Notes: generated from the sequence alone by a model not told the origin. Positions 11,922 through 27,438 are shown, counted from the first letter of the stretch. The stretch is 64,000 bases of DNA from Myxococcales bacterium (GCA_016792845.1 JAEUKH010000018.1:202984-266983); one strand, 5' to 3'. Translations and numbers: made by a program.

Positions 11922-14900
11922 ATGGTGGCTCGGTTTGCGTTGAGTCCGTCGCGGATTGCGCGCTTCTTCTTTCACGAGTGCGAGCGGCATTTGCGCTTCT
12001 CTGCGACGCCCAAGGCCCGTCGCGGCGTTGAGGGCGTGCCCGAGGTGGCCCTCGACGAGAGCCCGGTGACGGCCTCGCTCCTCGAAGGCGGCTACCAATG
12101 GGAGGAGCGGGTCGTCGAACGTCACCTCGCCGGTCGAGTGAGGGTGAGCCCCGGGCCGGGCGCGCTTCGCACGCGGGTCTTCGAGGCCGAGGCGACCCTC
12201 GAAGCCCTCGCGACGCTTCAGCCGGGCGAGTACCTCTACCAGCCCACGCTGATCGCGCCGCCAGGCTTCTTGGCGCGCTACAAGCTCGACCCCGCGTGGG
12301 TGTCGTTCGCCCCGTGTCGCCCCGACCTCATCGCGTGTGTGGCCACGCCCGAGGGGCCGCGGCTCCGCGTGGTCGACGTGAAGGCGAGCGACACCCTCAA
12401 GGCCAGCCACCGCGTTCAAGTGACGCTCTACGCGCTGATGTTGCGCGAGATCGTGCGCGACGCGGGGCTCGCGCTGGAGGTCGACCTCGAGCACGCCGCG
12501 ATCTGGCTCTTCGAGGCGCCGCAGCCCGAGCTCGTGGCGCTGCGGTTGACCCTCGGCGTGGTCGAGAGCTTTCTCTCAGATCGTGTCGCGTCGGTGCTCG
12601 AGGGCAAGGCCAGCGAGGCCGCGTGGCACCTCCATTACCGCTGCGAATGGTGCGAATATTACGACCACTGCCGGGCCGAAGCCGAAGCCACCCGCTCGGT
12701 CTCGCTGGTGCCGTACCTCACCGTGGGCGGCAGGGTCCACCTCCGGCAGCTCCGGCCCGACGCCCCGCCCGTCGAGACCCTCGACCAGCTCGCGGCCGCC
12801 CTTGACGACGACCCTGAGGGGCGCAGCCTCGACCCGTGCGGTTCGCTCCGCGGCAAGCGCGATCGCCTCGTCAACGCCGTCGAGGCCTTGCGGCGAGGCG
12901 AGCCGATGGCGCACGGCGGCAGCTCGATCAAGATGCCCGTCGGCGAGCACGTCCTCCTGGCCGTCACGGTGCATCGCGAGCCCCTCGGCGGGCGGCTCTA
13001 CGCCGCGGGCTTTCTGCGCATCAAGGGTAAGCGATACTTCGGCACGGGCTCGCAGCTCGAGTGCTTCGTGGCCGAGCGCCCCGACGAGGTGGTGACGCTC
13101 CGCCGCGCGTTCGTGCGCGCGCTCTACAGCGCCCTGAGCGAGCTCGACGGCGTCAACCGCGGCCTGAGCTGGCGCGATCAAGCGACGCTCCAGACCTACG
13201 TCTACGACAGCTTCGAGGCCGACGGTCTGCACGACCTCTTGTACGACACCCTCAACGACGACGAGGTCGGCCCCGAGGCCCTCGCGCTGATGTTTCACTT
13301 TCAGAGCGAGGGCGTGCTGCGGGCGGAGCGCCAGCCGGGGGTCGAGGTGCCCTACCCCGTGGTGACGCTGAGCGAGGTGCTGAGAGACCTGATCGCGCTG
13401 CCGACCCCGGTGGCCTACCACCTCGCCGAGGTGAGCGCCGCGCTGCCCAACCCGCAGTTCAGCTTCACCTACTCGCGCAGCAAATTCTTTGATTTCGCGC
13501 TCTCGAACCAGCTCAAGAGCGACGCCATCATGATGCTCTGGCGCGGCGATCGCCCAGACGCCGCCGGGTGGATCGAGCGTCGCCTCGCGGAGCGCCTCAG
13601 AGCCGTGAACAACCTCGTGAGCGGCCTCCGTGAGCGGCTCGCGGCCCGGCTCTTCGCGTGGCCTCCGAAGTTCTTCCTCCCTGTCGCGCTGGCCTTTGTT
13701 CACCCCGCGCTGTCGCGGATCGCGTTCGTGACGCGGTACGAGGCCCTGGTGACCTGCCTCGCCTCGCGCACGGCCCGCGCGCGGCCGCAGGGCGAGCGAG
13801 AGCGCGAGGGCGCCCGCATCAGGCTCCAGCACGAGGCCGACGACCGATGGCGCGTGCTGAACCCGCTCGACGACGCCCTGGTCGAGCTCGACGGCTACTG
13901 GGATCGCCTCGTCACCAGCGACTCTGACGAGGGTGAGCGCGCGCAGCTCGCCTTTGATGATTTTCTGCGACGAAAGCACATCCGCAGCCTCACCCGTGAG
14001 GACATCGAGTTGGGGCGCATCGTCGAGAAGACCGTCGACCCGAGACTCGGCCTCGTCACCCACCTCACCCTCGAACGCGGCGGCGTTGACGGGCTCGCGG
14101 CCCCGCCACCCCCCGGCGCGCGGCGGGCCCTGCACCCGCGGGTGACCGACTTCAACACCGACAAGATCTGCGCCCGCTTGCAGGCCATCGACGGCGACCC
14201 GGGGCACGATTTTCTCGCACTCCTTCGCGACCCCAACGCCTTCTCGTGCCCGGTCGCGCAGCCCCCCGCGGTGGCCCGCGCGTTGGAGGCCGAGCGCACC
14301 CGGGCGGGCCTCACGCCGAGCCAGGGCCGGGCCTTCGAGCACCTCGTGCGGCGCCGGCTCACCCTCGTCTGGGGCCCTCCGGGGACGGGCAAGACGCACT
14401 TTCTCGTCGCGTCGATCGTGCGCCTCGCGCGGGCCCACGCCGCCGCGTCGGAGGTCTTCCGGGTCGCCGTCTGCGCCTTCACCCACGCCGCGGTCGAGAA
14501 CCTCCTGTCGAGCCTCGCGGCGCAGCTCGCCCGAGAGCCCGAGGCGCCTTCGATCGCGGTGCGAAAGCTCGACAGCGTGCGCACGCCGCGCGGGCTCGAC
14601 CTTGAGGCGCTCTCCGTCGCCGAGAGCGCCGCGTTCAACGAACACCCTTTGGTCTTGGGCGGCACCGTGCACGGGCTCTCGAAGGCCATCGAGCGCTCAG
14701 GCTGCGCGCCCTTCTCGCTGCTCATCATCGATGAGGCTTCGCAGATGAAATTCGGCGAGCTGGCCCTCGCCTCGTCGGCGCTCGGGGCCGGCGCGCGGCT
14801 CGTCTTGGCGGGCGATGATCTGCAGCTGCCGCCCATCCTAAAGGGCCGCTACCCGAGCCCCGACGACGGCCTCCCGGGGCTGCAAGACTCGGTGTTCGCG

Positions 14901-15725
14901 TGGCTCCGCGCGCGGCAGTCGCCGACCGCGCCCTTCACCTGTCAGCTCGAAGAGAACTGGCGCATGCACGAGACCCTCTCGCGCTTCTCGGCCGAGACCC
15001 TCTATTCGCTGCGGTACCGCCCGGCCACCGCGGCCATCGCCGCACAGCGCATCGCCATGCGCGGCCCGAGCGCGCGCCCGGGCACGCCGCTTGAGCGCCT
15101 CATCGAGGCCCTCGTTGACCCCGAAAAGCCTTGGAGTCTCGCGGTGATCGATGGCCTCAAGGCCAGCACCGAGAACCGCGCCGAGGCCGAGCTGACGGCC
15201 CGGGTGGCGGTGGCGCTCCGCACCCGGATGCTCAGCCCCGGAGGCGAGCCCTACCCCGACACGCCCGAGGGCGACGCAGACTTTTGGCGTCACGGCCTCT
15301 TCGTGGTGAGCCCGCACCGCGCGCAGATTCGAGCGATTCGGAGCGCCTTGGCGCAGCACCGCCCTTGGGCCTACGCGCCCTTCGTCGACACCGTCGACAA
15401 GATGCAGGGCCAAGAGGCCCTCGCGGTGGTGGTGAGCTACGGCGTGAGCGACGCCGAGACCGCCGCGCTCGAAGCCGAGTTCATCTACTCGTTGCCGCGC
15501 TTGAACGTGTCGGTGAGCCGCGCCCGCGCGCGCTGCGTGGTGTTTCTGTCGCGCGCCCTGCTCGGACCGAGCTTCGACCTCCTCAGCAACCCCGAGGCCG
15601 CGCGGGGCATCGCCCACATGCACGACCTCTTGGCCTTTGTGCGCAGCGGCGGCCCGTCGAGCACCTTCGCCCTCGACGAGCTGGTCGACGGCCAGGGCGC
15701 GACGCTCACGCTCTACCGCCGCTGA
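11922..15725 (+). CDS. large nuclease-helicase: N-terminal Cas4/RecB-type PD-(D/E)xK nuclease with a Cys cluster, fused to a C-terminal Upf1/Dna2-like SF1B helicase (AAA_11/AAA_12)
   Basis: Nuclease motifs VVDVKAS...QVTLYALML and Cys residues (CRPDLIAC...CEWCEYYDHC). Helicase Walker A LVWGPPGTGKTH, IIDEASQM, motifs VVSPHRAQ, DKMQGQE, NVSVSRAR. Confidence 0.85.
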   Translation: MVARFALSPSRIARFFFHECERHLRFSATPKARRGVEGVPEVALDESPVTASLLEGGYQWEERVVERHLAGRVRVSPGPGALRTRVFEAEATLEALATLQPGEYLYQPTLIAPPGFLARYKLDPAWVSFAPCRPDLIACVATPEGPRLRVVDVKASDTLKASHRVQVTLYALMLREIVRDAGLALEVDLEHAAIWLFEAPQPELVALRLTLGVVESFLSDRVASVLEGKASEAAWHLHYRCEWCEYYDHCRAEAEATRSVSLVPYLTVGGRVHLRQLRPDAPPVETLDQLAAALDDDPEGRSLDPCGSLRGKRDRLVNAVEALRRGEPMAHGGSSIKMPVGEHVLLAVTVHREPLGGRLYAAGFLRIKGKRYFGTGSQLECFVAERPDEVVTLRRAFVRALYSALSELDGVNRGLSWRDQATLQTYVYDSFEADGLHDLLYDTLNDDEVGPEALALMFHFQSEGVLRAERQPGVEVPYPVVTLSEVLRDLIALPTPVAYHLAEVSAALPNPQFSFTYSRSKFFDFALSNQLKSDAIMMLWRGDRPDAAGWIERRLAERLRAVNNLVSGLRERLAARLFAWPPKFFLPVALAFVHPALSRIAFVTRYEALVTCLASRTARARPQGEREREGARIRLQHEADDRWRVLNPLDDALVELDGYWDRLVTSDSDEGERAQLAFDDFLRRKHIRSLTREDIELGRIVEKTVDPRLGLVTHLTLERGGVDGLAAPPPPGARRALHPRVTDFNTDKICARLQAIDGDPGHDFLALLRDPNAFSCPVAQPPAVARALEAERTRAGLTPSQGRAFEHLVRRRLTLVWGPPGTGKTHFLVASIVRLARAHAAASEVFRVAVCAFTHAAVENLLSSLAAQLAREPEAPSIAVRKLDSVRTPRGLDLEALSVAESAAFNEHPLVLGGTVHGLSKAIERSGCAPFSLLIIDEASQMKFGELALASSALGAGARLVLAGDDLQLPPILKGRYPSPDDGLPGLQDSVFAWLRARQSPTAPFTCQLEENWRMHETLSRFSAETLYSLRYRPATAAIAAQRIAMRGPSARPGTPLERLIEALVDPEKPWSLAVIDGLKASTENRAEAELTARVAVALRTRMLSPGGEPYPDTPEGDADFWRHGLFVVSPHRAQIRAIRSALAQHRPWAYAPFVDTVDKMQGQEALAVVVSYGVSDAETAALEAEFIYSLPRLNVSVSRARARCVVFLSRALLGPSFDLLSNPEAARGIAHMHDLLAFVRSGGPSSTFALDELVDGQGATLTLYRR

Positions 15726-17311
15726 CGACGCCGACGCCAGAGTAGCAACGCCGCCAGAAAGGCCCACCCCTGACGCCGGGCCGGGGGCCGCGCCGTGCAC
15801 GCGCACTGCCCGTCGATCACCGCGGGGCCCGGAGCCTCGGCGCTCGCGTCGGGCGCCCCCGCGGCGGGTCTGTCGTCGTCAGAGGGCGCGTCGACCGTAG
15901 GGCTCGTGTCGACCGTGGGGCTCGCGTCGACCGTGGGGCTCGCGTCGACCGTGGTGACATCGGCGGCGCTGGCGTCGGGCTGCGGCGCTGCGGCGTCGCG
16001 GTCGCCGGGAGCGTCGGGGTCTTCTGGGCCTGCGGTCATCGACTGCGAGCATTGGGCGCTCGCGCCAGACGCCATGCAGCGCGCGCCAGACCCGCAGGCG
16101 GTCACCGAGACGACGTTGCCGTTGTAGCAACGGGCGACGGTCTCGGCGTTGAGGCACACGGTGCGGTCGTCGGCGGGCGCCCCCGCGGCGGGCACGGGGC
16201 ACTGCGGCAGGGGCGCGACGCAGGTCGCCACGCCCGAGGCCATCGAGCACACCTGGCCCGCGGCGCAGGCGATCTCGCGGGCGCTGCCGTCGGCGTTGCA
16301 TTGCAGCTGCCGCCCCGCGTTGATCGAGCACGCGAGGTGGGCCACGGGCACCGCGCTCGGCCCCGCGACGCAGAGCGAGAAGACGCAGCGCGCGGCGGTG
16401 GGGCCGACCCCCGCGGTCGAACAGAACGCGCCGTACGCGCCGCACTCGCCGGCGCTCATTACCACGCCGTTGTTGCAGTGGATGATCTGCGATTGGTTGC
16501 CGCAAATGGTGGCCGTACCCGTGCGCGGACACCCCGGCGTGCCGCAGCGGGGGTTAGGGTCGGCGATGCACGTCGTGCCGTAGGCCGCGCAGTCGCCGCT
16601 CGCGCAGTCGGCCAACACGATGCGGGTGCCCTCGCAGCGGGCGGTGCAGCTCGCGCCGCCGCCCACCGCGCCCGAAGTGAAGAAGGGCGTGCGGCGGTTG
16701 GCGCCGTCGAGGTTCAGCTCCATGTGAATGTGATCGATGTGCGGGATGGGCCCCGTGTACGGCTGGAGCTTGGTGCCCGCAGGGCGCTCGGCGCGCCACG
16801 AGCTGCGATCCCAGATCACGATCTGGACGCCGATCTCCTGCGCGTGCTCGACGAGCCAGTTGGCCACCGCGTCGCCCGCCGTGTTGTCAGCGTCGCCGCC
16901 CGTCGTGGCGATCATCAGGTCGAGCGCGCGGCCGATGCTGTGAACGCTCAAGTAAGCGGTATTCCCTGTGTTTTGCCGACAGCAGTCGAAGCCCCCGGCG
17001 GAGCGAATCTGCGGAAAGCGGCGCCGCAGAAACTGTGCGAACTCGATCGTCCCCGGGAGCCCGCGGCTGCACGCCGGGTGGGTGCAGCTGCACGCGAAGG
17101 CATTGGTGCTCGTGCAGCGCCCGCCGTCGGCGATGCGCGGAGAGCCGTTGTAGAGCACATACTGTCGGTCGCCCACGGCGCGGGTCGACGCGGGCAAGAC
17201 CCACGGCCCGGGCACCGCGACGGCCTGTGCGTGCTGGGCCTCATCTGGCGCGGCCAGGCACCCTGCGGCCAGCGTCGCTCCGACAATCAACCAACAACGC
17301 GTGGGCAGCAT
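15713..17311 (-). CDS. secreted Cys-rich protein with an N-terminal LAS/peptidase-M15-like (VanY/Hedgehog-type zinc hydrolase) domain and a MYXO-CTERM sorting tail
   Basis: Signal peptide. SVHSIGRALDL ... IDHIHMEL match the H-x6-D / HxH zinc ligand pattern. Many Cys-containing repeats, a SPTVDASPTVD tandem, and the C-terminus GQCAC + hydrophobic segment + RRRRQRR. Confidence 0.7.
   Translation of the reverse strand: MLPTRCWLIVGATLAAGCLAAPDEAQHAQAVAVPGPWVLPASTRAVGDRQYVLYNGSPRIADGGRCTSTNAFACSCTHPACSRGLPGTIEFAQFLRRRFPQIRSAGGFDCCRQNTGNTAYLSVHSIGRALDLMIATTGGDADNTAGDAVANWLVEHAQEIGVQIVIWDRSSWRAERPAGTKLQPYTGPIPHIDHIHMELNLDGANRRTPFFTSGAVGGGASCTARCEGTRIVLADCASGDCAAYGTTCIADPNPRCGTPGCPRTGTATICGNQSQIIHCNNGVVMSAGECGAYGAFCSTAGVGPTAARCVFSLCVAGPSAVPVAHLACSINAGRQLQCNADGSAREIACAAGQVCSMASGVATCVAPLPQCPVPAAGAPADDRTVCLNAETVARCYNGNVVSVTACGSGARCMASGASAQCSQSMTAGPEDPDAPGDRDAAAPQPDASAADVTTVDASPTVDASPTVDTSPTVDAPSDDDRPAAGAPDASAEAPGPAVIDGQCACTARPPARRQGWAFLAALLLWRRRRQRR
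15891..15962. repeat. 18-bp tandem repeat (TCGACCGTGGGGCTCGCG)x3.5 encoding (DASPTV)n in the MYXO-CTERM protein
   Basis: Seen directly in the sequence. Confidence 0.8.
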
Positions 17312-17444
17312 GGCACCTCCGAGGTGTCGCGAAGTGTATCAAGCCTCTGCGAATTCAACGGGCGCCGATCGCAGGCCGAGAACTTTGTTAAACTGCGGTG
17401 GTCACAGCGCAAATGGGCCAAGCGCTGCACGGGGCGAGGGTGTG

Positions 17445-17732
17445 ATGCGACGACCGCAGGCGAGTGTGCATCGGTGTGCCGTTCCGACCTTGGCGGCGGC
17501 GAGCTTGATGGGCTTGGTGGTCGAGGGGTGTCACACGGGTCAGGCGGCATCGCAGCCGTCGGCGCCGGTGGCGACGGCGCCCTTGCCCGAGTTCGTGTCG
17601 GCGCAGCGGCGCGACCCGCATCAGCCGTTGGTGCCGCGGGTCGAGCGCGCGGTCGACGAGTCGATGTCGGTGGGGGGCGCGATCGCGGCGGTTCGCCCAG
17701 TCGGGGCGCCGCGACGATGGCCTGCGTTCTGA
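17445..17732 (+). CDS. small putative lipoprotein
   Basis: MRRPQASVHRCAVPTLAAASLMGLVVEGC gives a signal plus lipobox. It fills the gap between convergent genes. The short ORF is uncertain. Confidence 0.3.
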   Translation: MRRPQASVHRCAVPTLAAASLMGLVVEGCHTGQAASQPSAPVATAPLPEFVSAQRRDPHQPLVPRVERAVDESMSVGGAIAAVRPVGAPRRWPAF

Positions 17733-17743
17733 AGGGTCTTCGC

Positions 17744-19558
17744 TCAGCGAACCCGCGCGAACTGGTAGCGCGGGGTGATGGTGACGCCGCTGGTGTTCTG
17801 GCCGCGAATGCCCACGATGAGCTCGTCGCCGTTGACCTGGTAGACCAGCGAACCGGGCACGCCGCTGCCGCCCGGGGGGCAGGTCGCTTGCAGCGTCAGG
17901 GTGTTGCCCATCGCCGTAATATTGCCCGCGAACGAGAGCGGGATCTCGCGCGCCACGCGGATGCCCGCGCCGATCACCAGGGTGAGGCCCGTGTTGAGGT
18001 CGACCCTGAGGCTGTTGTCGGTGGTCCACACCTGGCCGCGGCCGTTGATGCCCGACTCGGCGAGGTTGATCATCCCGGCGCCGGTGTTGGCCGTGTCGAG
18101 GTAGTAGGTGACCCGGCGAAGCTCCCAGCGACCCGCCGGCAAGGGGCCGCCGGTCAGCGCAGGGGGGTCGCCCACCACGATCTGGCCGCTGCCGAGGGCG
18201 AGGTTGCCCATCGCGCCCGTCTCAGCGCACGCGCCCGGCGTGTAGGGCGTCTCGGGGCCTACGTTGATGGCCTCATCGCAGTACCGCGTGCTCGGCGGCG
18301 GCGTCACGTACGCGAAGTTGAAGCACATCTCGTCGGCGGTGCGAGAGCCCGAGCGCACGGGGCTCGCGGTGGGGTTGTTGAAGTTGCACCGGGTGATGAT
18401 CCGGTCGCCCTCGTTGAAGGTGTACGGGAGCTCGTAAAAGAGCTGCGACTCGAACTGCCACCCTTGGAGCGCCACCATGGGCTCGGTGCTGCCGCTGCGG
18501 CGCCGGATGGTCTCTTCGAAGGTCGTCCCGACGACGTGCATGTGCGGCATGCCCGCGAGCATGCGAGAGCCCGCGCGCAGGGTGCAGGCGCTCTCGGCGC
18601 GGGCCGTCGAGCGGGCCGGGATGGTGAAGCCCACAGGCCCGATGGCCACCATGCCGTACTCCGTCCCCGTGGCGGGGGCGTGGTAGAGCCGCACGCCCGA
18701 GTTGTCAGAGATGCCCTCGCGCATCGTGCCGTTGTTGTAGTGAATCTGCATCACGAGGCGCTGCCCCGGCGTCACCCGCAGCCCGCCTTCGGGAAACTGA
18801 AGCGCGTTCTCGCCGGGCGCCCACGCGTAGAGGTACTGGCTCCCCTCGGGCATGTCGTTGCAGCGGAAGGGCTGCGTCGGCGCGTTCTGCTCGGGGTCGC
18901 GCAAGAGCACCACGTGGTGCAACACCTCGCTGCGGTCGATGATCATCTCGAAGCGACGGATGAAGCGGTCTTGCGTCACCGGCACGGTGAAGGTGAAGCA
19001 CTGGTAGAGGTCTCGGTCGTTGACCCCGACGGCCCAGTTGTTGGCGCGAATGTCGAACGACTCGAGCCCCGCAGGCGGCGCTTCGGGTGAGCGGAAGCGC
19101 GGCGCCGACGCGCGGAGCCCCATGCCCGGCGCGGGGGTCTGGGCGCCGCAGCTCGCCCACTGAACGATCGACGCGGCCACGTCGTCGGTCGGCGCGGGGG
19201 TGCCCGCGGGCGGCATCGTGTGCGCCATCATGCGGGCCACCATCCGGTCGACCCGGCGCGAACCCGCCGCCCCGGCGACGTTGGCGTCGTAGTCGAGGAG
19301 CGAGTGCGGGGCGCCGAACTGCGGGCTCGCCGCGTGACAGTTGCCGCACTGCCGCTGCACCTGCGCGCGCACCGTGGCCTCCCATGCGGCGCGGTCGGGC
19401 ACGCACACCCCCGGCCCCGCGTCGACCGCCCCGTCGCGGGCCGCGTCGCTCACCGCCGCGTCGTTCGAGGCCGCCGGAGGCGTCGACGCACCACACCCCG
19501 CCAGCGTCGCGGCGATCACCCATGCCCGAGGCCCAAGCACCTTTGTCATGGGCGGCAC
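17744..19558 (-). CDS. lipoprotein with a c-type heme motif (CxxCH) and a copper type-II monooxygenase-like (PHM/DBH) domain
   Basis: Lipobox ATLAGCGAS, then QCGNCH. The pairs HHVVL...HYNNG and HMHVVG...EMCFNFAY match the CuH (HH..H) and CuM (HxH..M) ligand spacing of PHM/DBH. Confidence 0.75.
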   Translation of the reverse strand: MPPMTKVLGPRAWVIAATLAGCGASTPPAASNDAAVSDAARDGAVDAGPGVCVPDRAAWEATVRAQVQRQCGNCHAASPQFGAPHSLLDYDANVAGAAGSRRVDRMVARMMAHTMPPAGTPAPTDDVAASIVQWASCGAQTPAPGMGLRASAPRFRSPEAPPAGLESFDIRANNWAVGVNDRDLYQCFTFTVPVTQDRFIRRFEMIIDRSEVLHHVVLLRDPEQNAPTQPFRCNDMPEGSQYLYAWAPGENALQFPEGGLRVTPGQRLVMQIHYNNGTMREGISDNSGVRLYHAPATGTEYGMVAIGPVGFTIPARSTARAESACTLRAGSRMLAGMPHMHVVGTTFEETIRRRSGSTEPMVALQGWQFESQLFYELPYTFNEGDRIITRCNFNNPTASPVRSGSRTADEMCFNFAYVTPPPSTRYCDEAINVGPETPYTPGACAETGAMGNLALGSGQIVVGDPPALTGGPLPAGRWELRRVTYYLDTANTGAGMINLAESGINGRGQVWTTDNSLRVDLNTGLTLVIGAGIRVAREIPLSFAGNITAMGNTLTLQATCPPGGSGVPGSLVYQVNGDELIVGIRGQNTSGVTITPRYQFARVR

Positions 19559-19606
19559 TGTACCAGATCGTCGCAGCGCCGCCGCACGCCGCGATGCACG
19601 AAAATC

Positions 19607-20427
19607 TCAGCGAATCTCGACGCGACCGAGGTTCAACATCGTGGGGCGCTGAACCCGCAGGCGCACATACCGCACCGCGACGCCCTGGGCCTCGCAGCGG
19701 TAGAAATAGAAGGCCTCGCGGCGCTCGCAGAAGGTCTGCCAGCTGCGCCCATCGCGCGAGCCCTCGACGGTGAGCGGTACGGCCCAGTCTTGGTGATCGT
19801 CGAGGCGGTTCTGCACCCAGACCGTCGAGACCGGCCGGAGAACCCCGAGGTCGAAGCGCAGCCAGGGCTCTGACTCGATGGCCGTCTGGAAGAAGATGTT
19901 GGGACGCCCTTCGAGGGGGTGAAACCCGCGGCCCTCGGCGAGGTACGGCGCCGTGGCCGAGCTCGCGCGCCACGCCGCCGCGGCGGCCAGCTCGGGCCTC
20001 AGCGCGGCGCGCACACGCTTCGCGGTCAGCCCGACGCCCGCCGCCACCAGCGCCACCAGCGCCACCCGGAGGCCGCGATGAAAGGCCCTCAACCCTGGGC
20101 CCCCGAGCGCCTCGGTGCCCGCCTCGACCAAGGCCTGCGCGTGCTCGAAGCGCGCCGACGCGAGCGCCTCGGGCCCCGGGTCGCGCAAAGGCGCAGGCGC
20201 GGCGCGGCTCTCGTCGAGGGCCGCGAAGGTCGCGTCGAGGGCGGCGTGGGCGGCCGCGTTCGCGGTGTCAGCGTGCCAGCCTTCGCCCCACCGCGTGGCC
20301 ACCGGGTCGAGGGCCACGGCCGCCTCGGCGAGGTAGGCCCGGGCCGCTTCGAGCGCGCGGGCGTGGTCGGCGGTGGCCCCCTCGGGGCGCGCCGGACCGA
20401 GGAGCCAGCGCTTCAAATCACGGGCGA
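19607..20427 (-). CDS. F5/8 type C (discoidin) domain protein; the start is uncertain
   Basis: The C-terminal 150 aa (GRPNIFFQTAIESEPWLRFDLG...WAVPLTVEGSRDGRSWQ...VRYVRLRV) fit the discoidin fold. Only the part not overlapping the + strand GT-C gene is kept. GTG start is provisional. Confidence 0.5.
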
Positions 20428-20515
20428 AGGTCACCACAACGGCGCCGACCGTACACGATCCGGGGAGCCTTGACAGCAAGACCGCGATGATGGTCGATCG
20501 CGCGCCGGAGCGTGC

Positions 20516-22426
20516 ATGGGTTGGGTCGTCTGGGTTGTCGAATCGTTGTTGTGTCTTGCGGCGTCGTACACGGCGGCGGTGGCCCTCTACCGCGACCGGG
20601 GCACCCTTGATCGCGCGGTGACGGCGGGGGTGTTGGGCACCTTCTTGCCGTTGCTGCTGATGCATCTGACGGCGTTTGCGCACCGGCTTGAGCCTGTGAC
20701 CTTGGGCCTCGCGTCGACGGCGGTGTTCGGCGCCACGGCGGCCCTCGCGGTGCGTTCGCTCGGGGGGCGGGTCGAGGGCGTCGCGCGGTTGAGAGAGACC
20801 GCGCGGCACGACCTTGGGGGCTTCGGGCGGCTCGTCCGCGAGGCGCTGCAGGCGCGTGAGGTGGCGGTGTTCGCCGCGGTGCCTGCGCTCCTCGCGGCGG
20901 GCACCGTGATGCTGATGTGCTGGTACTACCGCTCGTGGACGTGGGACCCGGTCTGGTACCATGTGCCGAAGACCTCGTACGCGATCCAAGAGCGCTCGTT
21001 CGACTGGCTCTCGACCCCGAACATTTGGACGCAGGGCAACCCCCACAACGTCGAGATTTTGTCGGTGTGGCACTGCATCTGGCAGCGCGACAACCGCCTC
21101 GACGACGCCGCCCAGGTGCCCTTTCTGTTCTTCGGTTGGGCCGTCATCGCAGCCTGGGCGCGGCGCATCGGCGCGTCGCGGAGCCTCGCCTTCGCGGCCG
21201 GCGCGGTCTGGGTGGCCATGCCGCCGGTGTACCTCCAGGCCCACTCGACCCACGCCGATGTGGTGTGGAACAGCCTCTTCACCGCGGCCATTTACTTCAC
21301 CCTCGGCGCCCCCGAGCGGCGCGACCGCTGGATGGGCTTTCTCTGCTGGGGGCTCTTCCTCGGCACCAAGTACACGGGGCTCTTTCACCTCGCGCTTTGG
21401 GGCCCGTGGCTCCTCGGGCGCGCCGTGTACGAGGTCTGGCACCTACCCGGGCGGCGCCTCGCGCGGAGCCTCGACGTGGCCGCCTCGGGGCTCTTCGCGC
21501 TGGTCTTGGGCTGCTTCAAGTACCTCCAGAATCTGAAGCACACGGGCAACTTCATGTTCCCCTTCGAGGTGCAGATCCGATCGATCGGGTTGCACCTTCC
21601 GGGGCCCTCGAACCCGAGCCAAGAGTACGGCTCCGCGCCGGGTGAGAGCCCGACCTTCTTCGGCGCCCCCAACGCCCTCCAAGAGCTGGTGAGCAGCTGG
21701 TACAACGACCGACCGTTCTACTGCCCCGACGTGCGCTCGGGCGGCTTCGGGCCTGTGTTCCGCTGGCTGCTGCTTTTCGCCGTGATCGCGGTGACCCTCG
21801 ACATGCTTCGGGGCCGCAACTGGCGCCGCGGCTTGCTCCCGCTGGCGCTCTTCGTCGAAGCGCTGCAGGTGCCCGTGCCGTACATGACCCGCTTCATCCT
21901 CTCTGCGGGTTGCGCGTCGCTGGTGTTGTTCTGCGTGATGCACCGCGAGCTGAGCTACCGGCCGCTTCGCTTCGCGGTCTCGCTCGCGCTGGTGGCGCTC
22001 ACCTGGCACGGATACGACGAGGGCTACCGCGGCTTCATCGTGCACCCGCGGTATTTCGCAGAGGCCCGCGGGTTGGGCCCCGCCGACCGCGCCGCGATGC
22101 AGATCGACACCTTTCTCTGGCCCTCGAACTGGTCGCGCGCCAAAGAGCGCGAGCTCGGCCCCGGCGACGTGCTCGCGTACGACGAGGGCGTTCACTTTCT
22201 GGCCGAGCTCTGGTCACACGATTACGACCACCGGGTCGAGTTCGTGTCGAGCCAGGGCGACCCGCAGCGGTACCTCGCGCGGCTGCGAGGGATGCGTGCC
22301 AAATGGGTGGGCGTCACCGTCGGCACGCCCGCCGAGGCCGCGCTCCGTGAGGCCGGGGCGACGTGGTTGTTTCACACCCCCGACTCGCCCATGGCCATGT
22401 ACCGAATGCCAAGCCCCCCGCGGTGA
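20516..22426 (+). CDS. GT-C fold membrane glycosyltransferase (PMT/ArnT-like, polyprenyl-phosphate-sugar dependent)
   Basis: More than 10 TM helices with Trp/Tyr-rich periplasmic loops and a C-terminal soluble domain. First of three tandem paralogs. Confidence 0.7.
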   Translation: MGWVVWVVESLLCLAASYTAAVALYRDRGTLDRAVTAGVLGTFLPLLLMHLTAFAHRLEPVTLGLASTAVFGATAALAVRSLGGRVEGVARLRETARHDLGGFGRLVREALQAREVAVFAAVPALLAAGTVMLMCWYYRSWTWDPVWYHVPKTSYAIQERSFDWLSTPNIWTQGNPHNVEILSVWHCIWQRDNRLDDAAQVPFLFFGWAVIAAWARRIGASRSLAFAAGAVWVAMPPVYLQAHSTHADVVWNSLFTAAIYFTLGAPERRDRWMGFLCWGLFLGTKYTGLFHLALWGPWLLGRAVYEVWHLPGRRLARSLDVAASGLFALVLGCFKYLQNLKHTGNFMFPFEVQIRSIGLHLPGPSNPSQEYGSAPGESPTFFGAPNALQELVSSWYNDRPFYCPDVRSGGFGPVFRWLLLFAVIAVTLDMLRGRNWRRGLLPLALFVEALQVPVPYMTRFILSAGCASLVLFCVMHRELSYRPLRFAVSLALVALTWHGYDEGYRGFIVHPRYFAEARGLGPADRAAMQIDTFLWPSNWSRAKERELGPGDVLAYDEGVHFLAELWSHDYDHRVEFVSSQGDPQRYLARLRGMRAKWVGVTVGTPAEAALREAGATWLFHTPDSPMAMYRMPSPPR

Positions 22427-23565
22427 GACCGTGGCTCCGCGGCCCCCTCGCCGCGCTCGTCGTCACCCGCGCGCTGCTCTTCGCCGCCGCCTGGGTATCC
22501 CCTCGATGGGACGGCTTCTTCTACCTCCGCTTCGCCGCGCGCCTCGCCGCGGGCCTCGGCTACGTCGACCTCGCGCGCAGCGCCGTGCCCACGGCCTTCT
22601 ACCCGGTCGGGTTTGTGGCCGCGTGGTCGTGGGCGCTGCGCCTCGTCGGCACCCCGCGCGGGTCGCTCTTTTTGCTCCACCTCGCGGCCTCGGCGGCGGG
22701 CTGCGCGGCGGTGATGGTCGGCACCCGGCGGCTCCGCGACGAGGCCACGGCGAGGCGCGCGGGGTGGTGCTTCGTGCTGCACCCGGGCTTCGCGCTGTGG
22801 TCGCTCGCAGCGATGAGCGAGACCCTCACGGCGAGCCTCCTCGCGGTGGCCTTCGCGGCGCACGCGACGCGGCGCTGGTGGCTCCTCGGGCTCAGCGTGG
22901 GGCTCGCGACCCTCGTGCGCCCGCCGTCGGTGTGGGTGCTGGCCGTGGCGCTCTGCGCGGCGGGGCCCCTGCGCGCGCGGTTGAAGCGCCTCGCCTGCGC
23001 GGGCCTCGTGGCGGCGGCGGTGCTCGCGCCCTGGGCCGCGCGAAACTGTGTCACCCTCGACCGCTGCGCGATGGTAAGCACCAACGCCGGCATCAACCTC
23101 TACATCGGCGCCCTCGACGAGGCCCACGGCGGATACATCTTGCCCGCGCCGCGGGTCGAGTGTGAGCGCGCCGCGGGTGAGGTCGCCCGCGACCGTTGTT
23201 ACCTCGCCGCGGCCCGCGACCGCATCGCCGCGAGGCCCTGGGCGTGGGCGCTTCGAGGCGCCGAGAAGCTGGCGGTGACCTTCGGCGTCGAGCACGACCC
23301 GGTCGCGTACCTCCGTGCGCCGCGGCCGCTCTCTCGCGACCCCTGGGGCCTCGCGCTGACGGCCCTCTGCACCCTCGGCTGGTGGGCGACCCTCGGCGCG
23401 ACCCTCGCCTCGCTCTGGCGCCAGCGCACCCACGACGCGGCCCGCGCGGCGGCCCTGGTGCTCGGCCTCACGGCCCTCACCCACGCGGTCTTTCTCGGCG
23501 CCGATCGGTACCACCTGGTGCTCTTGGGGTGGTGCGCGCCGTGGGCCGTTCAGAGGCGACCGTGA
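22423..23565 (+). CDS. GT-C fold membrane glycosyltransferase (ArnT/PMT-like)
   Basis: The motifs YPVGF, AARNCV, NAGINLYIGAL and GADRYH are shared with the next paralog. GTG start overlaps the upstream stop by 4 nt. Confidence 0.75.
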   Translation: MRPWLRGPLAALVVTRALLFAAAWVSPRWDGFFYLRFAARLAAGLGYVDLARSAVPTAFYPVGFVAAWSWALRLVGTPRGSLFLLHLAASAAGCAAVMVGTRRLRDEATARRAGWCFVLHPGFALWSLAAMSETLTASLLAVAFAAHATRRWWLLGLSVGLATLVRPPSVWVLAVALCAAGPLRARLKRLACAGLVAAAVLAPWAARNCVTLDRCAMVSTNAGINLYIGALDEAHGGYILPAPRVECERAAGEVARDRCYLAAARDRIAARPWAWALRGAEKLAVTFGVEHDPVAYLRAPRPLSRDPWGLALTALCTLGWWATLGATLASLWRQRTHDAARAAALVLGLTALTHAVFLGADRYHLVLLGWCAPWAVQRRP

Positions 23566-24827
23566 CGCGGGCGAGCGCGTACTGGGCGCTCGTCGCGGCC
23601 GCGCTGCGCTTCGGCGTCGCGCGGGGCCTCGACCTGCGCCCCGCATGGGACGCCACCCTCTACCTCCGCGCCGCCGAGGGCCTCGCCCGCGGTGAGGGCT
23701 ACCACTGCGGCATGTTCGGCCCCGCGGCCGACCCGTCGGTGCCGACGGCCTTCTACCCCGTCGGGCTCCCGGCCTGGCTGGCGCTGTTCTTCGCCCTCCT
23801 CGGGGCCCACCCGTGGGTCTGGCAGCTCGCAGGCGCCCTCGCAGGGGCCCTCTCGGTGGGTCTGACGCACCACCTCACCCACACGCTCGGATCGCCCAGA
23901 CGGGCCCACCTCGCGGCGGCGTTGGCGTGCTTCGCCCCGGGCGCGGTGGTCTGGTCGGGCGCGCCCATGACCGAGACGGTGTGGGGCGCGTCGCTCTTGG
24001 CGATGGTGGCGCTCGGTCGAGGCCCGGGCGGCCCTCGGTGGCGGGCCTTCGGCGCGGGCACGCTCCTGGCGGCGGCGAGCTATTTGCGCCCCAATGCGTT
24101 GGCGCTGGGCGCCGTGGTGGCCGCGGCGGGCGACGGCACGCGGCGCGCGCGGGCGCACCTCGCGGTGGCCAGCACCGTGGTCGCCCTCGCATGGATCGCC
24201 CCATGGACCGCGCGCAACTGCGTCTCGGTCGACGGGTGCCTCTTGCTGAGCGCCAACGGGGGCAGCAACCTCGCCATCGGCGCCCTCCCGCGCGGCGAGG
24301 GCACTTACTTTCAGCTGAGGCCGAGCGAGGGGTGCCCGCTCACGGTGGTGGGCGACGCGGCCCGCGACGCGTGCTGGCGACGGGTGGCGCGTCGGGCCAT
24401 CGCGCGCGACCCCGCGGGGTGGCTCCGGCGGATGCCCGGCAAGCTCGCGCACACGCTCGAATACGAGCGATTCGTGACGAGCTACGCGGAAGAGGGCGCG
24501 CCCGGTCGGTGGAGCCCCGCGGCGCGGGCCTGGGCCGACCGATGGCTCTTTACGGGCGCCTGGCGCGCGCTCCTGGTCTTGGCGCTCTTGGGCCTCGCGA
24601 CGGGCGGCCGCCCCCCGGGGGTGATTCGGCAGAGCCTCGCGGTGATCGCGGCGGTGCTCGGCACCCACGCGGTGTTCTTCGGCGGAGACCGCTACCATGT
24701 GCCGCTCGTGCCCTTCTTCGCGATGCTGGCCTCGCGCGCTTTTCTTGCCATCGAGACGCCGTGGAATCGGGGCCCCGGCGCCCCCGACGGCACGCCCCGG
24801 GCGGCGCCTCGGGAGCTCTCCGGGTGA
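23562..24827 (+). CDS. GT-C fold membrane glycosyltransferase (ArnT/PMT-like), paralog of the preceding gene
   Basis: FYPVGLPAW, TARNCVSVDGCLLLSANGGSNLAIGAL and GGDRYHVPL match the preceding gene. GTG start overlaps the upstream stop by 4 nt. Confidence 0.75.
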   Translation: MTRASAYWALVAAALRFGVARGLDLRPAWDATLYLRAAEGLARGEGYHCGMFGPAADPSVPTAFYPVGLPAWLALFFALLGAHPWVWQLAGALAGALSVGLTHHLTHTLGSPRRAHLAAALACFAPGAVVWSGAPMTETVWGASLLAMVALGRGPGGPRWRAFGAGTLLAAASYLRPNALALGAVVAAAGDGTRRARAHLAVASTVVALAWIAPWTARNCVSVDGCLLLSANGGSNLAIGALPRGEGTYFQLRPSEGCPLTVVGDAARDACWRRVARRAIARDPAGWLRRMPGKLAHTLEYERFVTSYAEEGAPGRWSPAARAWADRWLFTGAWRALLVLALLGLATGGRPPGVIRQSLAVIAAVLGTHAVFFGGDRYHVPLVPFFAMLASRAFLAIETPWNRGPGAPDGTPRAAPRELSG

Positions 24828-25110: not shown

Positions 25111-27438
25111 ATGGCCGTTTTCGACCTCCACCTGCAACTTCGTACGAACCTCGCCTCGGGCGCCCAAGCGGCCCTCCGCGGCGCCGCCGCGACGCTCCGA
25201 AGCGCCGAGGTCGGCCCCTCGGTCTCGACGAGCCTCACCCTCGAACTTGCCGGCGAGCGCTGCGACGCAGCGAACCGTCTCGACCACGCGGCCTGCCTCC
25301 TCCGCGACCTCGCCGAGGCCGCCCTCGCCTTGGCCGACGGCCGCGCCCACCGCAAGACTGTGCGCGCCTACGACACCGCCTGGGAGCTCAGCCTCTCGCT
25401 CACGGCGGGCGCCTTCCTCGCGAGCCTGTACCGCACCGGCGCGGCCCCCGAGGTGCGGGCCGTCGACGTGCGCCTCGCGCCGCCCCTCCTCGTGAGCGCC
25501 CTCCGCGCGAGCCTCGACCGCCTCGGCAAGCTCCTCGACCCGACCTTCGTCACGGGCCTCGACGCGCTCATCACCCGCCTCGACGCCGTCGACCCGCGCG
25601 CGCTCGAAGCCCCGGCGCGCCACGACGACGCGCGCATCCAATGGCAGAGCGGCGCCACCCGGCGCGGCGAGCTCGCCCTCTCGTTCGACGCGGTGACCCC
25701 TGGGGCGTACCTCGAAACCCGCCGCGAGGCCCCCCAGAGCGACCTCGGCGCCCTCTTGATGAAGGGCAAGGTGGCCATGCATTTTCGCGGGCACCGCGCC
25801 GATCTGGGTACGGGTCATGTATTTCTGCACGTCGAGCGCCTGGTCGCCCTCTGCCGCCCGCTCATCGAGGCGTGGGCCGCGCGGCGCGCGTTTCACCTCC
25901 GCGCCCACGTCGGGAGCTGCACCGTGGGGGTGCGCCTCTCGGCCGACGAGCGCCTCGCGGTGTCGGTCTCGCGGAGCGTCGACGGCGGCATCACGGTGCC
26001 CTCGCTGAGCCTCCGGGCCTTCGTCGACCCGATCCTCGACGCGGCGCTGGCGCTCTGCACGGCGGTGGTGCAGTCAGACCGGGCGCTCTCGCGCAACCTC
26101 AGGCTCCGCGCGCTGCGCAGCGAGGCCCGCGATCTTCGGCATTGGCTCCGCACCCTCGACCGCGCCGACGGCAAGGTGAACGACGACCCCTCGCGGTACC
26201 AGGTTTCGCCCGTCGCGGCCGACCTCCGCGCGAAGAACGAGCCCGACCTCACGCAGTCGACCCGGCTCCGATACGCGGCGCGCTGGCGGGCTGAGATCGA
26301 AGGGCTCGACCTCGCCGGTACGCTCCTCTGCGGCGACAAGCTCGTGGTGCCGGGCACCCGCGAGCTGCACGCCCTCGACCGCGCGACGGGCAACGCCGTG
26401 TGGTCGGTGGCCGCGCCGAAGGCCAGCACCACCCTCGCGGGAGAAGACATCCTGCGCGTCTCGGGCCGCGGCGAGGTCGAGCTCCGCGCCGTCTCGACGG
26501 GCGAGGTCGTGTGGAGCACCCGCCTCGCGCCCCGGGTCGGCGCCCCCATCCTCGCGCACGCGGTGACCGCGCCGGGCCTGCCGCGGGTGGTGGTCGTCGC
26601 CGAGGGAGAGCGCAAGCTCGTCGCCCTCGATTTGCGCACCGGCGAGGCCCGATGGACCTTCGTCGCGCGGCACGGCAACACCTTTCGGCTGCGCCGCGCC
26701 GGGCGGCTCCTGGTGGTGACCTCGGGCGACGCCTCGGTGACGGCCATCGACCTCGCGAGCGGCGAGGTGGTGTGGCGCTACGCCGACCGGGTGGCCTTTC
26801 ACGCCTCGGCCCTGGTGCACCGCGAGATGGTCTTCGCCCTCGGCGGCGAGAGCACCCGGGGCCCCGCGCGCATCTACGCCCTCGGCGCCTTCACCGGCGC
26901 CCACGCGTGGACCCTCGAAGCGAGCGACCCCGCGTGCGGCCTGCCCTGCGCGACCGGCGACACCGTGGCCTTGCCGCTGAGCACCCGCGACGGCATCGTG
27001 CTCGCGGGCTACGACGTCGGCACGGGCGACGAGCGCTTTCGCACCCCCCTCGGCATCGCGGGCTTCGGCGGCGCGCGCCCCGCGGTGACGGCCTTCGACG
27101 ACCTGGTGGTCGCGAACCTCCCGACGGGTCGCGTGGTGGCCCTCGACGCCGCCACCGGCGCCACCCGGTGGACGCAGTCGTTCCGCGCGCCGGTGGCAGA
27201 CGACGTGCCGCGACGTCTCGACGTTCAGCTCCGGGCGGGCGCGCTCTTTGTGCCGCAGAGCAGCCTCGCGGTCTTGCGGCCCCGCGACGGCGCCGTCCTC
27301 GCCGAGGTCGACGCGTGCGATCTCGTGCCCGACCTCGTGCGCGTCGACGAGCACTGCGCCCTCTACGTCGCCGAAGAGAGCGGCCACCTCGGCTGCTTCG
27401 AGCTCGGCGCGCGGCTCCGGGTCATCCGCCCTGTCTGA
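25111..27438 (+). CDS. PQQ-like beta-propeller repeat protein (BamB-like) with a 400-aa N-terminal domain of unknown function
   Basis: The C-terminal half has at least six repeats of the G-x-x-W-[ST] type (GNAVWSVAA, GEVVWSTRL, GEARWTF, GEVVWRYA, GAHAWTL, GATRWTQ). The N-terminal half has no recognisable match. Confidence 0.7.
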   Translation: MAVFDLHLQLRTNLASGAQAALRGAAATLRSAEVGPSVSTSLTLELAGERCDAANRLDHAACLLRDLAEAALALADGRAHRKTVRAYDTAWELSLSLTAGAFLASLYRTGAAPEVRAVDVRLAPPLLVSALRASLDRLGKLLDPTFVTGLDALITRLDAVDPRALEAPARHDDARIQWQSGATRRGELALSFDAVTPGAYLETRREAPQSDLGALLMKGKVAMHFRGHRADLGTGHVFLHVERLVALCRPLIEAWAARRAFHLRAHVGSCTVGVRLSADERLAVSVSRSVDGGITVPSLSLRAFVDPILDAALALCTAVVQSDRALSRNLRLRALRSEARDLRHWLRTLDRADGKVNDDPSRYQVSPVAADLRAKNEPDLTQSTRLRYAARWRAEIEGLDLAGTLLCGDKLVVPGTRELHALDRATGNAVWSVAAPKASTTLAGEDILRVSGRGEVELRAVSTGEVVWSTRLAPRVGAPILAHAVTAPGLPRVVVVAEGERKLVALDLRTGEARWTFVARHGNTFRLRRAGRLLVVTSGDASVTAIDLASGEVVWRYADRVAFHASALVHREMVFALGGESTRGPARIYALGAFTGAHAWTLEASDPACGLPCATGDTVALPLSTRDGIVLAGYDVGTGDERFRTPLGIAGFGGARPAVTAFDDLVVANLPTGRVVALDAATGATRWTQSFRAPVADDVPRRLDVQLRAGALFVPQSSLAVLRPRDGAVLAEVDACDLVPDLVRVDEHCALYVAEESGHLGCFELGARLRVIRPV

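What the first reader, a model, noticed from the sequence alone, without database searches (positions are those of the whole stretch)
17744..19558. Lipoprotein combining a CxxCH heme-binding motif with a PHM/DBH-like copper monooxygenase domain
The spacing HH…H and HxH…M(C) (HHVVL, HYNNG, HMHVVG, EMCFNFAY) reproduces the CuH/CuM sites of peptidylglycine alpha-hydroxylating monooxygenase and dopamine beta-hydroxylase. The same polypeptide also carries QCGNCH, which would tether a c-type heme as a built-in electron donor. It would be a periplasmic copper monooxygenase with its own redox partner, and the substrate is unknown. It is adjacent to a discoidin-domain protein.
Basis: partly seen in the sequence, partly recalled or inferred. 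Interest (0 to 1): 0.55.

Follow-up and report, generated by a model that had tools for sequence, protein, structure and literature searches.

The report
Heme-fused PHM/DBH-like copper monooxygenase lipoprotein
This gene encodes a bacterial (myxobacterial) membrane-anchored enzyme that joins a small heme protein to a copper hydroxylase of the type animals use to make noradrenaline and amidated hormones. It probably gets its electrons from the cell's own cytochromes instead of vitamin C, but what it acts on is unknown.

Summary

CxxCH (71-75) and a distal-Met motif, MPP (115-117), lie in a confidently modelled helical domain, not in a disordered linker. They are conserved in at least 119 of 121 full-length homologs. 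All 22 N-domains tested match the class I cytochrome c model PF13442. Some relatives carry 3-4 tandem copies of this heme module.

- A C-terminal lipocalin-like beta-barrel (about residues 445-604).
- PHM's peptide-anchoring residues R240/N316/Y318 are M/F/F here, so this is not a peptidylglycine hydroxylase.
- The protein belongs to a large family whose named members are all Myxococcota. It has 2870 clusters at E<=1e-30, mostly the two-domain cytochrome c + copper core form, with several paralogs per genome.

The discoidin neighbour is conserved only among the closest orthologs.

Best reading: an ascorbate-independent copper monooxygenase with a tethered heme c electron donor. The substrate is unknown and possibly hydrophobic. 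I found no paper on it. It is a new variant of a known kind.

The parts
17744..19558 (-). Whole CDS of the heme-copper monooxygenase lipoprotein. It is 604 aa from GTG 19558 and more likely 601 aa from ATG 19549. The stop codon is 17744-17746.
   Evidence: ORF list. 100% identical to P0001, 601 aa, from a Myxococcales MAG. Sequence around the start.
19493..19558 (-). Lipoprotein signal peptide with lipobox L-A-G-C (residues 19-22). C22 would be the lipidated first residue of the mature protein.
   Evidence: Read directly from the sequence. C22 is conserved in 118/121 homologs. The signal-peptidase II consensus is from general knowledge.
19412..19492 (-). Low-complexity Ala/Asp/Ser-rich tether (residues 23-49). 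It is poorly conserved and predicted disordered.
   Evidence: pLDDT is below 50 for residues 1-49. Length and sequence vary in alignment A1.
19139..19411 (-). Class I c-type cytochrome domain (residues about 50-140). It contains CxxCH at 71-75 (19334-19348), the distal-Met motif MPP at 115-117 (19208-19216), and the probable disulfide C52-C137.
   Evidence: PF13442 gives E 0.01 on the full protein and E 5e-4 on the isolated domain. 22/22 homolog N-domains hit PF13442, best E 8.3e-7. A profile search of PDB sequences gives weak hits to CcoP and cytochromes c5/c6. Predicted helices are 56-75, 90-94, 102-111 and 125-135. Invariance is shown.
19064..19138 (-). Conserved linker (residues 141-165, consensus GxGLRxSAPxFxxPxxxPAGL). 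It is modelled with high confidence, which suggests the heme domain is docked on the core and not free to swing.
   Evidence: Consensus line of A1. Block pLDDT is 86-95 for residues 141-170. The docking itself is an inference.
18659..19063 (-). N-terminal jelly-roll of the PHM/DBH core, the CuH domain (residues about 166-300). Ligands are H214 and H215 (18914-18919) and H273 (18740-18742).
18254..18658 (-). C-terminal jelly-roll of the PHM/DBH core, the CuM domain (residues about 301-435). Ligands are H339 (18542-18544), H341 (18536-18538) and M411 (18326-18328). The PHM substrate-anchor positions are M337, F413 and F415.
   Evidence: PF03712 covers residues 312-432 at 43.9 bits. Alignment to the PHM motifs R-V-H-T-H and D-E-M-C-N-L-Y. 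Conservation.
17747..18253 (-). C-terminal domain (residues 436-604): an up-and-down beta-barrel with lipocalin/calycin-like topology and an invariant Cys pair C444/C560. No Pfam family matches it.
19607..20470 (-). Upstream same-strand neighbour: a membrane-anchored protein with a C-terminal F5/8 type C (discoidin) domain at about 19646-19912. Its start codon was not determined. A 48-57 nt gap separates it from the monooxygenase gene.
   Evidence: Pfam PF22633 and PF00754. Found beside the monooxygenase in 12 of 85 loci, 11 of 82 without duplicates, all at 52-65% identity.

Best explanation
The gene encodes a Sec-exported, lipid-anchored periplasmic protein with three domains: a monoheme class I cytochrome c, a two-copper PHM/DBH-type monooxygenase core, and a lipocalin-like beta-barrel.

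Proposed mechanism:
1. The covalently bound heme c (His75/Met115 ligation) accepts single electrons from the periplasmic respiratory pool, for example a soluble or membrane cytochrome c.
2. The heme passes them to CuH (H214, H215, H273). It thereby replaces the ascorbate used by the eukaryotic enzymes.
3. CuH relays an electron to CuM (H339, H341, M411), where O2 is activated.
4. A C-H bond of the bound substrate is hydroxylated.

The substrate is not a glycine-extended peptide. The hydrophobic replacements at the PHM carboxylate-anchor positions, the lipid anchor and the lipocalin-like barrel suggest a hydrophobic or envelope-associated molecule.

What is shown: domain identities, ligand conservation, fold, export signal and family distribution. 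What is inferred: heme attachment, the direction of electron flow, catalysis and the class of substrate.
For: Copper core:
- Both Pfam models are above their cut-offs.
- DBH (E 1.5e-14) and PHM (E 1e-11) align with all six ligands in register.
- The ligands are invariant in 121 homologs.

Heme domain:
- CxxCH and MPP are invariant.
- 22/22 N-domains hit PF13442 and 12/22 hit PSCyt1. A PDB profile search finds CcoP and cytochromes c5/c6.
- CxxCH sits at the end of the first helix of a four-helix domain.

Electron-relay role:
- 140 of 144 further family representatives carry CxxCH.
- Relatives P0188 and P0315 have 4 and 3 tandem copies of the same heme module in front of a single copper core.
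- No partner gene is conserved across 82 loci, which fits a self-contained unit.
- The heme-to-core linker is conserved and confidently modelled.

Precedent: copper nitrite reductases with a tethered cytochrome c donor (PMC7201279, PMC6038957).

Substrate: PHM R240, the salt bridge to the peptide carboxylate (PMC12164859), aligns to M337, and N316/Y318 align to F413/F415. The C-terminal barrel resembles lipocalins.
Against: - No experiment shows heme or copper in any family member.
- The cytochrome c Pfam score for this protein is below the curated cut-off.
- I could not read model coordinates, so the heme-to-CuH distance was not measured.
- The lipocalin similarity is moderate (Z no higher than 7.6) and such barrels have many functions. 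Most family members (116 of 144 representatives) lack the barrel, so it cannot be essential to the chemistry.
- The conserved neighbours of the closest orthologs (a discoidin protein and GT-C-like membrane proteins) point towards glycan or protein targets more than lipids.
Confidence: 0.6

Rival explanations
1. It is a heme-powered hydroxylase that modifies a peptide, protein or glycoconjugate of the cell envelope. In this orthologous group it would work together with the adjacent discoidin-domain membrane protein and the divergently transcribed GT-C-like membrane proteins.
For: - The characterised PHM acts on peptides, and the core fold is shared with PNGase F (PMC8812541).
- The discoidin gene lies 48-57 nt upstream on the same strand.
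- The block of discoidin protein, 636-aa membrane protein and PMT_2-like proteins is retained beside the monooxygenase in about 10 distinct loci at 52-65% identity. The PQQ beta-propeller gene that extends the block was seen only in the window and in L002.
Against: - The PHM residues that hold the peptide C-terminus are replaced by M/F/F.
- The synteny is limited to the closest orthologs: 12 of 85 loci, 11 of 82 without duplicates. More distant members (L003, L004, L005) sit in unrelated contexts, so common descent could explain it.
Confidence: 0.2
2. It is not a substrate-hydroxylating enzyme. Instead it is a periplasmic redox or copper-handling protein, for example an oxidase that passes electrons from the copper sites to heme and on to the respiratory chain, or a Cu(I) oxidase or buffer.
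For: It is a periplasmic lipoprotein with His/Met copper sites and a tethered cytochrome. The direction of electron flow has not been tested. No substrate is known.
Against: - The full, strictly conserved ligand sets of both the electron-transfer and the catalytic site of PHM/DBH are kept over wide divergence.
- No copper-resistance or copper-trafficking genes recur next to it.
- Several paralogs per genome fit substrate diversification better than a housekeeping role.
Confidence: 0.08
3. The CxxCH is not a heme c attachment site. It would be a redox-active or metal-binding dithiol in a helical domain, and the enzyme would use a diffusible reductant.
For: The Pfam cytochrome c score is below the gathering cut-off for this protein. 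PDB sequence hits are weak, with the best E 0.012.
Against: - H75 and M115-P116-P117 are as invariant as the two cysteines, which a dithiol motif would not need.
- Every homolog N-domain tested hits cytochrome c families and little else consistently.
- The helix layout matches class I cytochromes c.
- Some relatives repeat the module in tandem, as in multi-heme electron wires.
Confidence: 0.05

Closest known systems
Peptidylglycine alpha-hydroxylating monooxygenase (PHM, catalytic core of PAM; PDB 1phm/1opm/1sdw)
   Same: - Both Pfam domains match.
- CuH His-His...His and CuM His-x-His...Met ligands are in register.
- Cysteines align to three PHM disulfides (C81-C126, C227-C334, C293-C315). 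The pairings are from my memory of the PHM literature.
   Different: - Bacterial and lipid-anchored.
- A cytochrome c domain is fused in front and a lipocalin-like barrel behind. There is no PAL (lyase) partner domain.
- The substrate anchors R240/N316/Y318 are M337/F413/F415.
- About 23% identity.
- Ascorbate is unlikely to be the donor.
Dopamine beta-hydroxylase / tyramine beta-monooxygenase / MOXD1 (PDB 4zel)
   Different: The N-terminal domain of DBH is a DOMON domain, whereas here it is a c-type cytochrome with no PF03351 hit. There is no DBH-type C-terminal dimerisation domain. The protein is bacterial and periplasmic.
Copper nitrite reductases with a tethered cytochrome c domain (e.g. 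Ralstonia pickettii RpNiR)
   Same: Functional analogy only. A periplasmic copper enzyme carries its class I cytochrome c electron donor on the same polypeptide (PMC7201279, PMC6038957).
   Different: The copper fold (cupredoxin), the copper centres (type 1 and type 2) and the chemistry (nitrite reduction) are unrelated. The cytochrome is C-terminal there and N-terminal here.
Cellobiose dehydrogenase cytochrome domain donating to lytic polysaccharide monooxygenases
   Same: Functional analogy only. A heme domain delivers single electrons to a copper monooxygenase in place of a small-molecule reductant (general knowledge; see PMC11725913 on electron delivery to PMOs).
   Different: Heme b, not heme c. 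The two are separate proteins. The mono-copper histidine-brace active site is unrelated to the two-copper PHM/DBH core.

Membership tests
Copper type II (PHM/DBH) monooxygenase superfamily | Both Pfam domains (PF01082 N-terminal, PF03712 C-terminal) score above their gathering cut-offs | tested here: met
   43.9 bits against 30, and 43.9 bits against 23.
Copper type II (PHM/DBH) monooxygenase superfamily | CuH site: His-His pair plus a third His (PHM H107, H108, H172) | tested here: met
   H214, H215 and H273 align to them and are 121/121 conserved. Ligand identities are from PMC6123673.
Copper type II (PHM/DBH) monooxygenase superfamily | CuM site: His-x-His plus Met (PHM H242, H244, M314) | tested here: met
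   H339, H341 and M411 align to them and are 121/121 conserved.
Copper type II (PHM/DBH) monooxygenase superfamily | Double jelly-roll catalytic core fold | tested here: met
   [not shown]
Copper type II (PHM/DBH) monooxygenase superfamily | Binds two coppers and carries out O2-dependent C-H hydroxylation with an external one-electron donor (ascorbate in the eukaryotic enzymes) | not testable with these tools
   Needs purified protein, metal analysis and an activity assay.
PHM in the strict sense (peptidylglycine hydroxylase, EC 1.14.17.3) | Arg240 salt bridge to the substrate C-terminal carboxylate, with Asn316 and Tyr318 contacts | tested here: not met
   These positions align to M337, F413 and F415. 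F413 and F415 are invariant in A1. The role of R240 is from PMC12164859. The roles of N316 and Y318 are from memory of the PHM-substrate structure.
PHM in the strict sense (peptidylglycine hydroxylase, EC 1.14.17.3) | Associated PAL (lyase) domain or partner that completes amidation | tested here: not met
   No such domain in the protein, and no recurrent neighbour across 82 loci.
DBH / TBM / MOXD1 group | N-terminal DOMON domain (PF03351) | tested here: not met
   No DOMON hit even at E up to 10. A cytochrome c domain occupies that place.
Class I c-type cytochrome | CxxCH heme attachment motif plus a distal Met ligand | tested here: met
   C71-x-x-C74-H75 and M115 (in MPP). Each residue is conserved in at least 119/121 homologs.
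Class I c-type cytochrome | Profile match to a cytochrome c family at the curated threshold | tested here: inconclusive
   PF13442 scores 16.6 bits on the full protein and 20.8 bits on the isolated domain, against a cut-off of 27. However, 22/22 homolog N-domains match it, with the best E 8.3e-7. PDB profile hits are to CcoP and cytochromes c5/c6 at E 0.01-0.5.
Class I c-type cytochrome | Helical fold with CxxCH at the end of the N-terminal helix, and export to the periplasm for heme attachment | tested here: met
   Predicted helices are 56-75, 90-94, 102-111 and 125-135. The lipoprotein signal peptide is read from the sequence. Actual heme attachment cannot be tested here.
Bacterial lipoprotein | Signal peptide ending in a lipobox [LVI][ASTVI][GAS]C | tested here: met
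   The N-terminus reads ...AWVIAATLAGC with a K/R-containing n-region. The Cys is conserved in 118/121 homologs. The consensus is from general knowledge.
Lipocalin / calycin-like barrel | Eight-stranded antiparallel up-and-down barrel that encloses a ligand pocket | tested here: inconclusive
   [not shown]

The most novel reading that the evidence does not exclude
This would be the founding example of a large prokaryotic branch of the PHM/DBH family that is independent of ascorbate. It would be wired to the respiratory chain through one or more tethered c-type hemes, and would hydroxylate envelope lipids or other hydrophobic metabolites at the membrane surface, with the lipocalin-like barrel presenting the substrate. 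That would be a new physiological role for this copper chemistry. It would also give a natural single-polypeptide system in which electron delivery to CuH can be triggered and followed optically.
Probability: 0.3. Interest if true: 0.7.

Novelty: new variant of a known kind. Interest (0 to 1): 0.55.

Why it matters
PHM and DBH have been studied for decades. Two questions remain debated (see PMC12164859, PMC9064607): how reducing equivalents reach CuH, and how the electron then crosses to CuM.

A natural enzyme whose donor is a covalently tethered heme c has a built-in optical reporter and a defined entry point for electrons. That would make these steps directly measurable.

It would also show how bacteria run this chemistry, assuming as I do from general knowledge that most do not make ascorbate. 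It would open a family of thousands of sequence clusters with no known substrate. The family is expanded into several paralogs per genome in myxobacteria, which are rich in unusual lipids and secondary metabolites.

Tried and rejected
- NCBIfam scan of the protein: no family.
- Foldseek against AFDB50: the library was not available, so I have no UniProt-level view of annotated relatives.
- Context look-up for the Sandaracinus amylolyticus homolog P0075: not on record. P0082 from a second Sandaracinus genome was used instead.
- Eight literature searches, seven of them for a characterised bacterial PHM/DBH homolog or a cytochrome c fusion and one for the nitrite reductase precedent. None of the seven found a paper on this family. 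The library does not cover most subscription journals, so this absence is not proof.
- Unbiased clustering of flanking ORFs in 82 loci. It is noisy because of spurious high-GC ORFs, but no neighbour recurred in more than 11 loci, so I rejected the idea of an obligate partner gene.
- Promoter and terminator scan of 15500-20700: nothing above the shuffle expectation.
- A second copy of the gene in the window: none.
- Two eukaryotic proteins (a chytrid and an oyster) scored about 1e-95 to 1e-103 against the profile. I considered that they might be unusually close relatives. I rejected this because they carry two tandem PHM-like cores at only 26-27% identity and have no CxxCH, so the score is inflated by the duplication.

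Full report
**Observation**

The window is about 70% G+C. The ORF at 17744..19558 on the minus strand encodes 604 residues from a GTG. An identical protein in NCBI (P0001, "hypothetical protein JNK72_06565", Myxococcales MAG) is 601 residues. It therefore starts at the ATG at 19549. Residue numbers below count from the GTG.

- The lipobox LAGC, ending at C22.
- QCGNCH (C71, C74, H75).
- HHVVL (H214, H215).
- HYNNG (H273).
- HMHVVG (H339, H341).
- EMCFNFAY (M411).

**The copper core**

Pfam places Cu2_monooxygen (PF01082) on residues 168-278 and Cu2_monoox_C (PF03712) on residues 312-432. Each scores 43.9 bits, above the curated cut-offs of 30 and 23.

Against the sequences of solved structures, the best matches are human dopamine beta-hydroxylase (E 1.5e-14) and rat PHM (E 1e-11). 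The printed alignments match the two proteins as follows:
- HH214/215 to PHM H107/H108.
- H273 to H172.
- H339-x-H341 to H242-x-H244.
- M411 to M314.

The ligand identities are those given in PMC6123673 and PMC12164859.

**The heme domain**

On this protein alone the cytochrome c evidence is weak. PF13442 gives E 0.01 and 16.6 bits, against a cut-off of 27. The comparative evidence is strong.

- In 23 diverse homologs (40-65% identity), C71, C74, H75 and M115-P116-P117 are invariant.
- In 121 full-length homologs, each of these residues is present in at least 119.
- All 22 isolated N-terminal domains hit PF13442, with the best E 8.3e-7. Twelve also hit the planctomycete cytochrome c family PSCyt1.
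- A profile of the domain finds CcoP and cytochromes c5 and c6 among solved structures, at E 0.01-0.5.
- In the model, CxxCH ends the first helix (56-75) of a four-helix domain, and the MPP lies in a loop before the last helix. This is the layout of class I cytochromes c (general knowledge).

The 25-residue stretch that joins the heme domain to the copper core is conserved and confidently modelled, with block pLDDT 86-95. This suggests a fixed docking.

1. Residues 436-604 form a separate domain. Modelled alone it has pLDDT 95.5 and pTM 0.90.
   - Its best structural neighbours are lipocalins and bacterial lipocalin-like barrels: Bla g 4, a Bacteroides lipocalin-like protein, Tp0751, RBP4, YceI and VtrC/ToxS. 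Z runs from 7.6 down to about 6.
   - It has no Pfam or PDB sequence match.
2. The PHM residues that hold the peptide C-terminus are not conserved.
   - R240, the salt bridge to the substrate carboxylate (PMC12164859), aligns to M337.
   - N316 and Y318 align to F413 and F415, which are invariant.
   - The protein therefore fails the test for PHM in the strict sense.
   - It also lacks the DOMON domain of the DBH group.
3. The protein is not unique.
   - The word-indexed search returned 259 homologs, most about 590 residues long with the same three domains.
   - An exhaustive profile search of 1.84 billion representatives found 2870 clusters at E<=1e-30, 10,183 at E<=1e-10 and 20,820 at E<=0.001.
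   - Of 144 new top representatives, 140 carry CxxCH. 116 end shortly after the EMC motif, so they are the two-domain cytochrome c + copper core form. 26 have the long C-terminal tail.
   - Two relatives have three (P0315) and four (P0188) tandem copies of the same heme module in front of one copper core. This is what one would expect of an electron-relay module.
   - Nearly all named sources are Myxococcota: Polyangiales, Sandaracinaceae including cultured Sandaracinus amylolyticus, Bradymonadia and Nannocystaceae. Single genomes hold several paralogs.

**Genomic context**

The discoidin-domain gene ends 48-57 nt upstream on the same strand. Beyond it, transcribed divergently, lie three polytopic membrane proteins (20516-24827) and a PQQ-type beta-propeller protein (25111-27438).

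- In the ortholog locus L002 (54-56% identity), the corresponding membrane proteins carry PMT_2 (GT-C glycosyltransferase) hits.
- The discoidin gene accompanies the monooxygenase in 12 of 85 loci (11 of 82 without duplicates), and the 636-aa membrane protein in 10. All of these loci are at 52-65% identity.
- More distant members sit in unrelated neighbourhoods.
- No neighbour recurs in more than 11 of 82 loci.

I read this as synteny within one orthologous group. It may or may not reflect a functional link. The family as a whole is self-contained.

**Mechanism**

The steps I consider shown at the sequence and model level:
- A lipoprotein export signal.
- A c-type cytochrome module.
- Complete electron-transfer (CuH) and catalytic (CuM) copper sites on a PHM/DBH fold.
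- An accessory barrel.

The steps I infer:
- Heme is attached in the periplasm.
- It takes electrons from the respiratory cytochrome pool and reduces CuH, replacing the ascorbate of the eukaryotic enzymes. I do not expect ascorbate to be available in the bacterial periplasm (general knowledge).
- CuM activates O2 and hydroxylates a C-H bond.

Tethered cytochrome c donors are an established solution in another periplasmic copper enzyme, nitrite reductase (PMC7201279, PMC6038957).

The substrate is unknown. Three features favour a hydrophobic or envelope-bound molecule:
- The hydrophobic residues at the PHM anchor positions.
- The lipid anchor.
- The lipocalin-like barrel.

The discoidin and GT-C neighbourhood of this particular ortholog group favours a glycan or protein target. 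I put about 0.6 on the overall tethered-heme monooxygenase model. Within it, only about 0.3 goes to the hydrophobic-substrate reading.

**Rivals**

- A peptide-, protein- or glycoconjugate-modifying role linked to the neighbouring genes (0.2).
- A non-hydroxylating redox or copper-handling role (0.08).
- A CxxCH that does not bind heme (0.05).

The evidence for and against each is given in the Rival explanations section.

**Novelty and score**

The sequences are already public, but only as "hypothetical protein", "cytochrome c domain-containing protein" or "monooxygenase". Seven full-text searches found no paper on a bacterial PHM/DBH homolog or on this fusion. The library is incomplete, so this is not proof of absence.

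Both the chemistry and the idea of a tethered heme donor are known. Their combination in this family, and the existence of a large prokaryotic branch, appear uncharacterised. I rate it a new variant of a known kind, with interest 0.55.

It needs three additions: the third domain, the loss of the peptidylglycine anchor, and the family context.

Noticed in passing
P0188 (728 aa) and P0315 (628 aa), relatives found: These relatives carry four and three tandem copies of the same cytochrome c module (CxxCH at 45/138/230/325 and at 35/130/225) in front of a single PHM-like copper core, like a short heme wire.
   Followed up: partly
window 15713..17311 (-): The gene immediately downstream encodes a 532-aa Cys-rich secreted protein. 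It has weak Extensin-like_C and Peptidase_M15_4 similarity (E 0.016 and 0.23) and a C-terminal run of PTVD(A/T)S repeats. It is shared (68% identity) only with the closest related locus, L001, where its counterpart carries PF26571.
   Followed up: partly
window 20516..24827 (+) and 25111..27438 (+): Three large polytopic membrane proteins have no Pfam hit here, but their counterparts in L002 carry PMT_2 (GT-C glycosyltransferase-like) hits. They are followed by a 775-aa PQQ_2 beta-propeller protein. The membrane proteins are syntenic in about 10 ortholog loci; the propeller gene was seen only in the window and L002.
   Followed up: partly
window 11922..15725 (+): A 1267-aa protein combines an N-terminal PD-(D/E)XK / Cas4-like nuclease domain with an AAA_11/AAA_12 (Upf1-like SF1) helicase. 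It is not found next to any homolog of the monooxygenase.
   Followed up: no
loci L006-L085: Single Myxococcota MAGs carry several paralogs of the heme-copper monooxygenase on different contigs. For example, JBPOHC and JBDHVF each have three. This suggests diversification of substrates.
   Followed up: no
P0265 (chytrid Blyttiomyces, 1340 aa) and P0323 (oyster Ostrea edulis, 1134 aa): These eukaryotic proteins have two tandem PHM-like cores and no CxxCH. They score very high against the bacterial profile only because of the duplication, and identity to the window protein is 26-27%.
   Followed up: yes
window 19549 vs 19558: The mechanical ORF starts at a GTG, but the deposited identical protein starts three codons later at an ATG. 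No clear Shine-Dalgarno sequence precedes either codon.
   Followed up: partly
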